A stretch of 10,314 bases of DNA from UHGV virus genome UHGV-0113241. One strand, written 5' to 3'. The notes below the pieces were generated by a model, which was not told where the DNA came from, searched no databases, and was given only the letters and a program-made list of their open reading frames with translations. Made by a program: the position numbers and the translations under genes. Shown here piece by piece: positions 1,217 through 2,496 of the stretch (position 1 is the first letter of the stretch; each line of letters opens with the position of its first letter). This stretch comes from a virus.

Positions 1217-1306
1217 AAAATGACATACCAGTTTATGGTATAAGTAGATCACGTGTATACTGTCAAGGTTCTCATTAACAATCACACAAAATAATCGGAA
1301 AATACA
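1217..1306 (+). promoter_or_regulatory. Intergenic region upstream of the acetyltransferase gene with a candidate sigma70 promoter (-10 TATACT at 1256..1261, weak -35 near 1232..1237)
   Basis: AT-rich 90-bp gap between the int stop and the acetyltransferase start; hexamers found by eye only. A single GATC lies at 1247..1250. Weak Shine-Dalgarno ('cggaaaa') before the ATG at 1307. Confidence 0.3.
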
Positions 1307-2448
1307 ATGAAACACGTTACTTCTCTTGATGGAGCTAGAGGAATTGCCGTCATAATGGTCATGTTATTTCATTCTAATATACCTTGGGCATCTTTGGGGT
1401 GGGCTGGTGTTCCATTATTCTTTTGCCTTTCGGGGTTCCTGATCACATCAATTCTTGAGGAAGACAGGAAGTATAGATTTGCCGGGTATATTAAAAAGTT
1501 TCTAATAAATAGATCGTTGAGAATATTTCCTCTATTCTATCTATATCTTGCGGTTAATTTTGTAATAGTTAAATCAATGGGAGGAAGTACGGACGGTTAT
1601 TCTTGGTTTGTCACCTACTTACAAAACTATTACATTGGTAATAACATAACAACACCAGGAATACTTGGACACACATGGTCTCTAGCTATAGAAGAACAAT
1701 TCTATTGGATTTGGCCTATTGTAATATTTTTTATTCGCCCACCAAAGGAAGTATGTTTTTTTGTATTTCTTGTGATAATCTCATTAGCTTCTAGATATTT
1801 TATATTCAATATGTCTGGAGGTAATCCGTATATAACTAACGTAACTCTTATCAGTTGTGTTGATATGCTTGTCCTAGGCGCTATCTTTGCTCATATAAAG
1901 GATAGCAATAAAGCACCACAAATAGCCATGTTGACATTTATAGTTGGTTCTATTGTTACTGCATATGGCGTTATAAATATTGGGATTAATAATTTTTGGC
2001 ATCCAGAGCAGTGGGTTGGCAAGGGATTATACCTATTTACATCATTAGGGATGACATTCTCATCAATTATTTGGTTCTTATATTATTCATCAGGAAAAAT
2101 GACAGGCCAGCAACAGCCAGCAACAGCCAGCAACAGCCAGCAACAGCCAGCAACATTTTACAACTATTTATAACGACTTGTAACAAGATATTTAACTTAA
2201 AATTCCTTAGATTTACAGGAAATATAAGTTACGGCCTTTACATGTGGCACTTGCTATGTTTTTCAATAGTAAGAAAAATGTTTTCATTTGTAGGAATCAC
2301 AACTGATGGATTCACTTACATAGCTGCTTCATTTATTGTATCATATGCAGTTTCAATAGCATCATTTTACTTATTTGAGAGTTTTTTTCTTCGTTTTAAA
2401 GTAAAATCTTGCAGAGAAGGATTTATTTTAAGAAATTCAGTAAAATAA
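1307..2448 (+). pseudogene. Acyltransferase-3 family membrane O-acetyltransferase (Oac-like O-antigen acetylase), reading frame interrupted at an internal 10-bp tandem repeat; candidate phase-variable gene in OFF state
   Basis: ORF 1307..2173 encodes about nine hydrophobic helices with an acyltransferase-3-like N-terminus ('SLDGARGIAVIMVMLFH', 'PLFFCLSGFLITS'). ORF 1996..2448 in another frame carries the family's conserved C-terminal motif ('FLRFTGNISYGLYMWH') and final helices. The two frames meet inside the repeat at 2107..2155. An in-frame fusion would give a protein of about 383 aa. Confidence 0.8.
2107..2155. repeat. Tandem decanucleotide repeat CCAGCAACAG, 4 full copies plus 9 of 10 bases of a fifth, inside the acetyltransferase coding sequence
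   Basis: Read directly from the sequence: ccagcaacag at 2107, 2117, 2127 and 2137, then ccagcaaca at 2147..2155. A degenerate partial copy ('acagg') precedes it at 2102..2106. Confidence 0.95.
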
Positions 2449-2456
2449 ATTATATG

Positions 2457-2489
2457 TTCGGCATCGGTATTTTATACACTGATGCCGAA
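2457..2489. terminator. Bidirectional intrinsic terminator hairpin between the convergent acetyltransferase and tailspike genes
   Basis: Perfect 9-bp inverted repeat TTCGGCATC (2457..2465) and GATGCCGAA (2481..2489) with inner pairing GTAT/ATAC. Flanked by T-rich sequence on both strands (tttatttt on the minus strand, tcatttattc on the plus strand). Sits 8 bp after the acetyltransferase stop and 7 bp after the tailspike stop. Confidence 0.5.
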
Positions 2490-2496
2490 ATATCAT

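What the first reader, a model, noticed from the sequence alone, without database searches (positions are those of the whole stretch)
1217..2496. Strongly AT-rich cargo gene inserted between int and the tailspike (moron position)
The acetyltransferase gene and its flanks are visibly far more AT-rich than the integrase, ejection genes and nin region, and the gene is bracketed by its own candidate promoter and a terminator hairpin. That is the pattern of an independently acquired lysogenic-conversion cassette at the int/tailspike junction, where Sf6 carries oac and P22 carries gtrABC. A promoter of its own would allow expression from the repressed prophage.
Basis: seen in the sequence. Interest (0 to 1): 0.35.

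Follow-up and report, generated by a model that had tools for sequence, protein, structure and literature searches.

The report
Repeat-switched prophage sugar acetyltransferase gene
The AT-rich gene between the integrase and the tailspike is a prophage-borne membrane O-acetyltransferase that is switched off here by a frameshift inside a 10-base tandem repeat, whose copy number varies among otherwise identical E. coli strains, so it looks like a mutational on/off switch for a surface-sugar modification.

Summary
The AT-richness is real. GC is 0.336 for 1217-2496, against 0.505±0.013 in the ejection and nin genes. The terminator hairpin is real too. The proposed promoter is not supported above chance.

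The Acyl_transf_3 gene is not one ORF. It is split into two frames at a perfect 10-bp repeat, GCCAGCAACA x5, at 2106-2155.

In other E. coli isolates the same gene carries 2, 3, 4, 5, 6, 7 or 9 units. Multiples of three give a full-length protein of 373, 383 or 393 aa. All other numbers truncate it at 278-298 aa.

Three pairs of loci have no substitutions over 5.6-10.9 kb. Two of them differ only in repeat number. The third also has two indels in int. Every OFF allele read far enough downstream is restored by gaining or losing one unit.

The repeat encodes a low-confidence loop after the eighth long helix. Homologues about 54% identical to the query allele lack it.

The closest precedent is neuO of prophage CUS-3. 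It sits in the same int/tailspike slot and uses a 7-nt repeat, but the enzyme family differs.

The exchanged low-GC module also includes the tailspike receptor-binding domain. The window's prophage is defective.

Verdict: a probable phage-borne contingency locus, a new variant of a known kind. Switching and the acceptor sugar are inferred, not shown.

The parts
14..1216 (+). IntS-type tyrosine integrase, the conserved left flank. RefSeq annotates the equivalent gene as 388 aa, which corresponds to a start near 50. The last 70-93 nt (from 1124 or 1147) travel with the cargo module into prophages at other sites.
   Evidence: Pfam Phage_integrase, Phage_int_M and Arm-DNA-bind_3. About 97.5% DNA identity to Sf6 and CUS-3 int up to 1198-1202. 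RefSeq annotation in L001 and L002. Junctions at 1124 and 1147 in L022, L003 and L009.
1217..1306 (+). The 90-nt AT-rich spacer upstream of the acyltransferase (GC 0.31). No promoter is demonstrated.
   Evidence: Sequence. Promoter scan not above shuffles. The spacer is invariant apart from one SNP in every locus and context examined. Only one GATC lies in it, at 1247.
1307..2173 (+). The 5' reading frame of the Acyl_transf_3 gene. The OFF product is 288 aa and ends ...QQQPATFYNYL*. It covers the part of the protein up to and including the eighth long helix, including conserved H22, R69 and R72.
   Evidence: ORF list. Pfam PF01757 positions 2-255, E = 1.4e-18. Exactly this 288-aa product occurs on 3 public contigs. 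Conserved columns from alignment A2.
2106..2155 (+). Perfect tandem repeat (GCCAGCAACA)x5, the frameshift point and putative switch.
   Evidence: TRF: period 10, 5.0 copies, 100% matches. Related loci carry 2-9 units. Copy numbers that are multiples of 3 restore the frame.
2156..2448 (+). The 3' part of the acyltransferase gene, in the frame of ORF 1996-2448. It encodes the C-terminal helices with invariant G298, S301, Y302, G303, Y305, H308, S346 and E351. It is intact and joins the 5' frame after +1 or -2 repeat units.
   Evidence: Pfam PF01757 positions 255-323. Simulated copy numbers. Invariant columns of alignment A2. AlphaFold2 model.
2457..2489 (.). Hairpin with a 12-bp stem and 9-nt loop between the two convergent stop codons. 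Flanking A/T runs extend the pairing to 2440-2505. It looks like a bidirectional intrinsic terminator.
   Evidence: dG -23.5 (+ strand) and -25.1 (- strand) kcal/mol, z = -6.8 and -7.7. Sf6 has an annotated putative terminator in the same place.
2497..4068 (-). Receptor-binding part of the tailspike (aa 114-636). It belongs to the same low-GC exchanged module as the acyltransferase.
   Evidence: GC 0.399, GC3 0.307. No DNA homology to Sf6 or CUS-3 between about 1200 and about 4065. 65% aa identity to tail-fibre proteins of phages Bp4 and PD38. PHROG 27367.
4069..4407 (-). P22-type head-binding domain of the tailspike (aa 1-113), the conserved right flank of the module.
   Evidence: Pfam Head_binding, E = 2.3e-67. 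DNA homology to CUS-3 and Sf6 resumes at 4062-4070.

Best explanation
The span holds a stand-alone AT3-family membrane O-acyltransferase carried as cargo by a P22-like (Sf6/HK620/CUS-3-type) prophage at argW. It sits next to, and is inherited together with, the receptor-binding domain of the tailspike.

Proposed mechanism:
- When the reading frame is intact, the enzyme transfers an acyl group (probably acetyl) across the inner membrane onto a surface polysaccharide. The most likely acceptor is the O-antigen that the neighbouring tailspike recognises. This would change the serotype and block adsorption of related phages.
- Expression of the full-length enzyme depends on a 10-bp tandem repeat in the codons of the loop after the eighth long helix.
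- Slipped-strand mispairing at replication adds or removes units.
- Copy numbers divisible by three (3, 6, 9) give 373-, 383- and 393-aa proteins that differ by 10-aa blocks in that loop.
- Every other number shifts the frame. The protein then ends 7-8 codons after the repeat and loses the C-terminal helices and eight invariant residues.
- The window carries 5 units, so it is in the OFF state. One unit gained or two lost would switch it ON.

Shown: family membership, the frameshift, copy-number polymorphism on identical backgrounds, restorability, and the loop location.
Inferred: the slippage mechanism and its rate, the acceptor sugar, the effect on phage or immunity, and any selective benefit of switching.
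For: (1) The Pfam Acyl_transf_3 match splits at profile position 255 between two frames, at the repeat.

(2) Protein clusters P0001 and P0002 (70 and 65 member sequences, all named members E. coli) hold full-length alleles of 373, 383 and 393 aa. They also hold truncated alleles of 278, 288 and 298 aa in both wrong frames. These correspond to 2, 3, 4, 5, 6, 7 and 9 units. DNA loci confirm the counts.

(3) Matched pairs:
- L007 (9 units, ON) and L014 (4 units, OFF) have 0 mismatches in 5,615 columns. The only difference is a 50-nt indel in the repeat.
- L011 (2 units) and L013 (4 units) have 0 mismatches in 10,857 columns. The only difference is a 20-nt indel in the repeat.
- L006 (9 units, ON) and L008 (7 units, OFF) have 0 mismatches in 10,918 columns. 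They differ by the 20-nt repeat indel and by two indels in int (15 nt and 1 nt).

(4) Every OFF locus read far enough downstream becomes full-length, ending ...RNSVK, after ±1 unit. No secondary decay is seen.

(5) The AlphaFold2 model of the 3-unit allele has mean pLDDT 94. The repeat-coded residues 267-276 lie in the non-helical stretch 262-275, between helices 243-261 and 276-289. This is the least confident internal region of the model.

(6) Homologues about 54% identical to the query allele (Trabulsiella, another E. coli lineage) have no repeat in that loop.

(7) Interrupted 3-unit arrays (GCC/GAC/GCC) are uniformly 373 aa across the full-length members listed. Arrays of one unit type are seen at 2, 4, 5, 6, 7 and 9 units. 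Greater instability of longer, purer arrays is expected for slippage.

(8) Eight of 30 invariant family columns lie downstream of the repeat. They include E351, which by its position near the C-terminus may correspond to the functionally important Glu334 of OafB; this equivalence was not tested by alignment (PMC9833829).

(9) Precedents:
- neuO of CUS-3 occupies the same slot. It switches by a 7-nt repeat, ON only at multiples of three, and protects against K1 phage (PMC3046976; PMC9659370).
- H. influenzae oafA is a phase-variable AT3 gene; the review cites the paper that identified it among tetranucleotide-repeat LPS genes (PMC9558356).
- Salmonella oafA loses function by contraction of a 7-bp tandem repeat under IgA pressure (bioRxiv 10.1101/824821).
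Against: No switching rate was measured. Zero substitutions in about 10 kb only bounds divergence loosely, so the data show hypermutability relative to point mutation. They do not show the 1e-2 to 1e-5 per generation typical of phase variation.

The window's own near-clonal lineage (window, L010-L013; at most 4 mismatches in 3.6 kb) shows 2, 4 and 5 units. All are OFF, which fits neutral drift after loss of function as well as it fits switching.

Many carriers are degraded prophages (window; L010-L013). There, phage-directed selection is moot.

The allele sample is not random. Public annotation may under-report frameshifted genes, so the ON:OFF ratio cannot be tested.

No promoter is established.

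The acceptor sugar is unknown. The gene is rare: 2 of 5,426 complete E. coli genomes.
Confidence: 0.62

Rival explanations
1. Neutral decay. The acyltransferase is a dead or dying gene in a defective prophage. The 10-bp array is just an unstable VNTR that drifts, with no adaptive ON/OFF role. In this window it is simply a pseudogene.
For: The window's prophage has lost everything between Q and gene 7. L010-L013 keep only int, the acyltransferase and a tailspike fragment. The window's near-clonal lineage shows only OFF numbers: 2, 4 and 5. Both wrong frames are populated.
Against: No OFF allele read far enough downstream has a second lesion; each is restored by ±1 unit. Full-length alleles at 3, 6 and 9 units are common among the listed members. 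ON/OFF pairs exist on identical backgrounds. The gene with its upstream spacer is retained in several prophage contexts and in remnants, while neighbouring phage genes decay.
Confidence: 0.28
2. This is an intact, self-contained lysogenic-conversion cassette, acquired independently of its neighbours. It is constitutively expressed from its own promoter in the repressed prophage, like Sf6 oac.
For: Same gene order as Sf6, where a putative oac promoter and terminator are annotated. Strong hairpin. Low GC. The spacer travels with the gene into other contexts.
Against: The ORF is broken in this window. Promoter-like sites are not above chance. The exchanged low-GC block also contains the tailspike receptor-binding domain. 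The protein is only remotely related to Sf6 Oac.
Confidence: 0.06
3. Artefact. The odd repeat number is a metagenome assembly or sequencing error, and the gene is really intact.
For: The window matches a metagenome scaffold (ENA ERZ28577078). Short repeats can be mis-assembled.
Against: A 50-nt array is shorter than a typical short read. The identical 288-aa product is recorded on 3 contigs. A second 5-unit allele of the other unit type occurs in isolate genomes (P0126). Each other copy number recurs in several independent assemblies. Two complete genomes show 9 units and a 39-nt variant array.
Confidence: 0.03

Closest known systems
neuO of E. coli K1 prophage CUS-3 (the 'mobile contingency locus' of Deszo et al. 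2005, as cited in PMC3046976)
   Same: It is an O-acetyltransferase cargo gene of a P22-like prophage with a near-identical integrase (97.6% DNA identity). It lies in the same slot between int and the tailspike. An intragenic tandem repeat whose unit is not a multiple of 3 nt makes the gene full-length only at copy numbers divisible by three. Repeat triplets add peptide blocks to the protein (PMC3046976). The enzyme modifies the polysaccharide that the neighbouring tailspike targets, and it protects against phage (PMC9659370).
   Different: NeuO is a soluble left-handed beta-helix acetyltransferase that acts on polysialic acid. The protein here is an integral-membrane AT3 protein. The unit is 10 nt rather than 7 nt. 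The repeat lies about 800 nt into the gene, in an internal loop, rather than 2 nt after the start codon. The gene has the same orientation as int, whereas neuO is opposite. 2-9 copies were observed here, against 2-93 for neuO. Switching and phenotype are demonstrated for neuO but not here.
Oac of Shigella phage Sf6 (stand-alone AT3 O-antigen acetyltransferase)
   Same: Same gene order: int(+), acyltransferase(+), terminator, tailspike(-), gp16(-). Same argW-type integrase. Same Pfam family and stand-alone architecture without an SGNH domain (PMC9558356).
   Different: Only 32% identity over 85 N-terminal residues, E = 2e-5 in a two-sequence comparison, so it is a different AT3 lineage. The ON alleles are 373-393 aa against 333 aa for Oac. 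Sf6 oac is annotated as a single intact 333-aa CDS in the record read here.
Phase-variable or repeat-inactivated AT3 genes: H. influenzae oafA and Salmonella Typhimurium oafA
   Same: These are AT3-family acetyltransferases of LOS or O-antigen. H. influenzae oafA is phase-variable (PMC9558356). Salmonella oafA is knocked out by contraction of a 7-bp tandem repeat in its reading frame (bioRxiv 10.1101/824821).
   Different: They are chromosomal genes in the accounts read, not cargo beside a tailspike. Salmonella OafA is an AT3-SGNH fusion. The repeat units are shorter (7 bp in Salmonella oafA; the H. influenzae gene was identified among tetranucleotide-repeat LPS genes). The Salmonella event is described as a contraction causing loss of function, not as a multi-copy array seen in all three frames.
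gtrABC and oafB O-antigen modification loci of P22-like and other Salmonella prophages
   Same: They are prophage-associated O-antigen modifications whose expression is phase-variable (PMC9558356).
   Different: That switch is epigenetic and acts through signature sequences upstream of the gene (PMC9558356). From my own knowledge it is the Dam/OxyR type, with paired GATC sites. Here only two GATC sites lie within 1000-1400, and only one in the spacer. The variable element here is inside the coding sequence.

Membership tests
Acyltransferase-3 (AT3, Pfam PF01757) stand-alone membrane O-acyltransferases | Significant match to the PF01757 profile over its whole length | tested here: met
   The 5' frame matches profile positions 2-255 (67.5 bits, cutoff 31). 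The 3' frame matches 255-323 (27.8 bits on its own). Together they cover 2-323 of 326. All full-length alleles carry PF01757. PHROG 3333 'O-acetyltransferase' matches residues 1-358.
Acyltransferase-3 (AT3, Pfam PF01757) stand-alone membrane O-acyltransferases | Multi-helix (about 10 TMH) membrane fold with a conserved His in TMH1 and conserved Arg residues on TMH1 and TMH3 (PMC9833829) | tested here: met
   The AlphaFold2 model has pLDDT 94 and pTM 0.92 and is all-helical, with 10-11 long hydrophobic helices. H22, R69 and R72 are invariant and R11 nearly invariant in 68 homologues. No solved AT3 membrane domain exists to compare with; the best Foldseek PDB hit has E = 0.26.
Acyltransferase-3 (AT3, Pfam PF01757) stand-alone membrane O-acyltransferases | No fused SGNH domain (stand-alone type) | tested here: met
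   The only Pfam domain is PF01757, and the protein ends 373-393 aa after the start.
Acyltransferase-3 (AT3, Pfam PF01757) stand-alone membrane O-acyltransferases | Acyl transfer to a surface glycan | not testable with these tools
   This needs NMR or mass spectrometry of the polysaccharide from ON and OFF strains.
SSR-mediated phase-variable (contingency) locus | Tandem repeat inside the reading frame (or in the promoter) whose unit length is not a multiple of 3, so that copy number sets the frame | tested here: met
   10-bp unit, 5.0 perfect copies at 2106-2155. Simulation: 0, 3, 6, 9 and 12 units are ON; all other numbers are OFF.
SSR-mediated phase-variable (contingency) locus | Copy number differs between closely related strains, with both ON and OFF alleles and no other lesions | tested here: met
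   2-9 units across isolates. Three pairs show 0 substitutions over 5.6-10.9 kb; two differ only in the repeat and the third also has two indels in int. Every OFF allele read far enough downstream is restorable by ±1 unit.
SSR-mediated phase-variable (contingency) locus | High-frequency, reversible switching within a clonal population | not testable with these tools
   This needs read-level heterogeneity in cultures or a fluctuation test. No raw reads were available.
SSR-mediated phase-variable (contingency) locus | A phenotype that differs between ON and OFF | not testable with these tools
   The truncation removes 8 of 30 invariant residues and the C-terminal helices. Loss of activity is inferred from this, not measured.
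Sf6 Oac orthologue group | Full-length sequence similarity to Sf6 Oac | tested here: not met
   BLASTP gives only 85 aligned residues at 32% identity, E = 2e-5.
gtr/oafB-type epigenetic (Dam/OxyR) phase variation | Clustered paired GATC sites with OxyR half-sites upstream of the gene (own knowledge of the gtr signature) | tested here: not met
   Only two GATC sites lie in 1000-1400, at 1110 and 1247. They are 137 nt apart, and only one is in the spacer.
Lysogenic-conversion moron with its own promoter and terminator | A recognisable promoter upstream and a terminator downstream | tested here: inconclusive
   Terminator hairpin: met. Promoter: 13 consensus-like sites against 8.2±3.0 expected, and none convincingly placed upstream of the ATG.

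The most novel reading that the evidence does not exclude
This would be a second, independently evolved phage-borne contingency locus in E. coli. An AT3 O-antigen acetyltransferase would be toggled by a decanucleotide repeat. The host would have kept it as a switch even after the prophage decayed. The 10-, 20- and 30-aa loop versions (3, 6, 9 units) might also tune enzyme activity rather than being merely tolerated.
Probability: 0.3. Interest if true: 0.65.

Novelty: new variant of a known kind. Interest (0 to 1): 0.55.

Why it matters
To my knowledge, repeat-driven phase variation is a hallmark of Haemophilus, Neisseria and Campylobacter and is considered rare in E. coli. There, neuO of CUS-3 is the textbook phage-borne case.

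A second example would differ in enzyme family, repeat unit and position in the gene. It would probably act on O-antigen rather than capsule. That would suggest that the int/tailspike slot of P22-like prophages repeatedly evolves stochastic switches for surface-sugar modification. Such switches trade phage resistance and immune escape against the cost of the modification.

In practice, the allele state would affect serotyping, phage susceptibility and the choice of phage or tailspike reagents. Annotation pipelines will call the same gene intact or a pseudogene depending only on repeat number.

The hypothesis can be tested directly with existing isolates such as strain 47-1826, LF4-1 and the SRA runs listed in the next-steps section.

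Tried and rejected
- Phage collection, near-identity DNA search with the cargo: only the int 3' end matched, so no deposited phage genome carries this gene at 85% identity or more.
- Metagenome-contig scan with the 32-mer right flank of the repeat: 0 hits. The viral-contig scan gave only 2 loci.
- Foldseek of the model against the PDB: no meaningful hit (best E = 0.26, TM about 0.2). This says nothing about function.
- NCBIfam: no family for the acyltransferase or the tailspike.
- Look-ups of the repeat-less homologues P0003 and P0006 to see their genomic context: neither is on record. Whether they also sit beside a tailspike is unknown.
- Literature searches for the repeat sequence itself, and for E. 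coli, acyltransferase, 10-bp or decanucleotide phase variation: no paper describes this locus. The library lacks most subscription journals, so absence is not proof.
- Low GC as a by-product of membrane-protein amino-acid composition: rejected, because the drop is at third codon positions (GC3 0.20-0.30 against 0.44-0.57) while GC2 is unchanged.
- gtr-like Dam/OxyR epigenetic switch: rejected, because there is no GATC cluster.
- Programmed ribosomal frameshifting or transcriptional slippage to bypass the frameshift: considered. I saw no homopolymer or slippery heptamer in the repeat on reading the sequence. No evidence either way beyond that.
- The terminator-like hits on the - strand at 2105-2121 are the repeat pairing with itself through G-T pairs. 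I regard them as scan artefacts.
- Sidedness of the repeat loop: alternation of helices and the positive-inside rule suggest it is cytoplasmic, and OatA has a large cytoplasmic loop between TMH8 and TMH9 (PMC9833829). The model has 11 long helices, so this remains an inference.
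Full report
**1. The observation**

The span 1217-2496 has GC 0.336, against 0.477 for the rest of the window. All 1280-bp windows to the right of position 4100 give 0.505±0.013, with a minimum of 0.466. The drop is at third codon positions. GC3 is 0.30 in the 5' part of the gene and 0.20 in the 3' part. It is 0.52 in int and 0.44-0.57 in gp16, gp20, gp7 and the nin genes. GC2 barely differs, so the low GC is not a side effect of a hydrophobic protein.

The AT-rich block does not end at 2496. The receptor-binding part of the tailspike (2497-4068) has GC 0.399 and GC3 0.307. 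The cumulative GC deviation peaks at 1187 and reaches its minimum at 4548.

The hairpin is real. The core stem is 2457-2468 / 2478-2489. Folding energy is -23.5 kcal/mol on the + strand (z = -6.8) and -25.1 on the - strand (z = -7.7). A/T runs flank it on both sides, so it looks like a bidirectional terminator between the two convergent genes.

The promoter is not established. The scan found 13 consensus-like sites in 1000-2800, against 8.2±3.0 in shuffles. The two + strand hits in the spacer overlap the ATG.

**2.

The acetyltransferase gene is not one ORF. ORF 1307-2173 (288 aa) matches Pfam Acyl_transf_3 positions 2-255. A second frame that stays open to 2448 matches positions 255-323. The break coincides with a perfect tandem repeat, (GCCAGCAACA)x5.0, at 2106-2155. 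Because the unit is 10 bp, each unit gained or lost shifts the frame by one.

**3. Related sequences**

No deposited phage genome has the gene at 85% identity or more. Two of 5,426 complete E. coli genomes carry it, at argW-intS. In both it is annotated as an intact 'acyltransferase family protein', of 393 aa and 376 aa. Alignment shows 9 units in strain 47-1826 and a 39-nt variant array in LF4-1, with otherwise about 98-99% identity to the window.

A protein search found two E. coli clusters with 70 and 65 member sequences. The members listed fall into two groups:

| State | Protein length | Repeat units | C-terminal tail |
|---|---|---|---|
| ON | 373, 383, 393 aa | 3, 6, 9 | ...RNSVK |
| OFF, first wrong frame | 278, 288 aa | 2, 5 | ...PATFYNYL* |
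| OFF, second wrong frame | 288, 298 aa | 4, 7 | ...QQHFTTIYNDL* |

I fetched DNA for 20 loci, and it confirms these counts. The window is identical to a human-sample metagenome scaffold (ENA ERZ28577078). Its exact 288-aa product is recorded on three contigs.

**4. Hypermutability**

Three pairs of loci have no substitutions:

| Pair | Units | Aligned columns | Mismatches | Differences |
|---|---|---|---|---|
| L007 / L014 | 9 (ON) / 4 (OFF) | 5,615 | 0 | one 50-nt indel in the array |
| L011 / L013 | 2 / 4 | 10,857 | 0 | one 20-nt indel in the array |
| L006 / L008 | 9 (ON) / 7 (OFF) | 10,918 | 0 | the 20-nt array indel and two indels in int |

The array therefore changes much faster than bases are substituted.

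Simulating copy numbers in the window's own background gives a full-length protein at 0, 3, 6, 9 and 12 units and truncation at every other number. Every natural OFF locus read far enough downstream becomes full-length after ±1 unit. The window does so after +1 or -2 units. None has acquired a second lesion.

Interrupted three-unit arrays (GCC/GAC/GCC) are uniformly 373 aa in the full-length members listed. Arrays of a single unit type are seen at 2, 4, 5, 6, 7 and 9 units. Greater instability of longer, purer arrays is what replication slippage predicts.

**5. The protein**

An AlphaFold2 model of the 3-unit allele, built with 68 homologues, has mean pLDDT 94 and pTM 0.92. The repeat-coded residues 267-276 (GQQQTATASN) lie in the non-helical stretch 262-275, between helices 243-261 and 276-289. 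This is the least confident internal part of the model.

Homologues about 54% identical to the query allele have a short, unrelated loop there and no repeat. The array is therefore a lineage-specific insertion in a tolerant loop.

Conserved AT3 residues are present: H22, R69 and R72 are invariant and R11 nearly so. Eight of the 30 invariant columns (G298, S301, Y302, G303, Y305, H308, S346, E351) lie after the repeat and are lost in OFF products. The AT3 literature describes a 10-TMH fold, essential Arg residues on TMH1 and TMH3, a probable catalytic His in TMH1 and a functionally important C-terminal Glu (PMC9833829). Whether E351 is that Glu was not tested by alignment. Loss of activity in OFF alleles is inferred, not measured.

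PHROGs names the family 'O-acetyltransferase' and 'O-antigen acetylase'. NCBIfam has no model for it, and the PDB has no comparable structure.

**6. The module and its context**

Against CUS-3 and Sf6, DNA homology runs 1-1198/1202 (int, about 97.5%) and resumes at 4062/4070 (the tailspike head-binding domain). What lies between is replaced:

- CUS-3 has neuO plus an endosialidase.
- Sf6 has oac plus its rhamnosidase.
- The window has the AT3 gene plus a receptor-binding domain 65% identical to tail-fibre proteins of phages Bp4 and PD38.

The exchanged low-GC unit is therefore cargo plus receptor-binding domain, not the cargo alone.

The same unit, together with the last 70-93 nt of int and the unchanged 90-nt spacer, also occurs in prophages at other chromosomal sites. 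One is next to bioA-ybhB.

The protein is not an Oac orthologue: 32% identity over 85 residues.

The window's prophage is defective. A Q antiterminator truncated to 84 aa lies about 100 nt from gene 7, so the lysis, packaging and head genes are gone. Other carriers are even smaller remnants.

**7. Interpretation**

The best-supported reading is a phage-borne contingency locus. It would be a membrane O-acyltransferase, most likely acting on the O-antigen that the adjacent tailspike recognises. A decanucleotide repeat would switch it ON and OFF by slipped-strand mispairing. The window is in the OFF state with 5 units.

The closest precedent is neuO of CUS-3. It has the same prophage type and the same slot, and it is ON only at multiples of three. 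Its repeat triplets add peptide heptads, and it protects against K1 phage. The differences are these:

- The enzyme family is AT3, not a left-handed beta-helix.
- The unit is 10 nt, not 7 nt.
- The repeat lies in an internal loop, not at the N-terminus.
- The probable substrate is O-antigen, not capsule.

AT3 genes affected by repeats are also known outside prophages: H. influenzae oafA and a 7-bp repeat contraction in Salmonella oafA. I found no paper on this E. coli locus. The library is incomplete, so this is not proof of novelty.

**8. Caveats and the main rival**

No switching rate, transcript, acceptor sugar or phenotype has been shown. Zero substitutions over about 10 kb bounds divergence only loosely.

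The window's own near-clonal lineage (window, L010-L013) shows 2, 4 and 5 units, all OFF. That fits neutral drift of an unstable array in a dead gene as well as it fits switching.

The allele sample is not random, so the ON fraction cannot be tested against one third.

My weights are about 0.62 for the switch reading, 0.28 for neutral decay, and little for the original intact-cassette model or for an assembly artefact.

**9. Verdict**

The interesting content is the variable 10-bp repeat that breaks the gene here. It is a new variant of a known kind. It is of moderate to good interest and can be tested directly with existing isolates and public reads.

Noticed in passing
window 8636-8995 (junction near 8780-8787): The prophage in the window is defective. 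An 84-aa ORF (8741-8995, - strand) matches only the first 72 residues of Q-type antiterminators. It lies about 100 nt from ejection gene 7 (7976-8635). DNA homology to the Q/ninH/rusA regions of lambdoid phages starts at about 8787. The lysis, terminase, portal, coat and tail-needle genes expected between Q and gene 7 are missing.
   Followed up: partly
window 2497-4068 (- strand): The tailspike receptor-binding part (aa 128-635) is 65% identical to tail-fibre proteins of the roughly 72-kb phages Bp4, vB_EcoS_Uz-1 and PD38, and 58% identical to one in vB-EcoS-XT34. The N-terminal 113 aa is the P22 head-binding domain. This looks like exchange of a receptor-binding module between unrelated phage types. 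The host O-antigen type was not determined.
   Followed up: partly
L022 4818-10256 and L023; L003; L009: The acyltransferase-tailspike module also occurs without an adjacent integrase in other chromosomal contexts. L022 lies next to bioA-ybhB, the classical lambda attachment region by my own knowledge. L009 lies next to a PBP5-like gene. The module still carries the last 70-93 nt of the argW-type int gene (homology starts at window 1124 or 1147), a footprint of recombination from an Sf6-type backbone.
   Followed up: partly
L010-L013 (e.g. L013 3744-9781): In several E. coli isolates only int, the acyltransferase and a C-terminal tailspike fragment survive; homology to the window ends at 3597. 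They are followed by psu- and ogr/delta-like genes (Pfam Psu and Ogr_Delta). The repeat still differs (2 or 4 units) between these otherwise identical remnants.
   Followed up: partly
L006 / L008 around 3944 and 4278 (int gene): Two loci with no substitutions differ by a 15-nt indel and a 1-nt indel inside int, in addition to the repeat. int is called as 383 aa in L006 and is not called in L008. The integrase seems to be decaying in this lineage.
   Followed up: no
L002 / L004 repeat region (L002 3907-3945): A variant array, ACAGCAACAG ACAGCAACAG ACAGCAACAG ACAGCAATA (39 nt), is one base shorter at its 5' junction and has a C-to-T change in the last unit. It is in frame and gives 376 aa. It may be a stabilised ON allele.
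   Followed up: no
window 14-1216: The mechanical ORF for int starts at GTG 14 (400 aa). RefSeq annotates the equivalent gene as 388 aa, which corresponds to a start near window 50.
   Followed up: no
window 6597-6613: A short 7-nt repeat (CTGCTGG x2.4) lies at the gp16/gp20 gene boundary. It is probably trivial.
   Followed up: no
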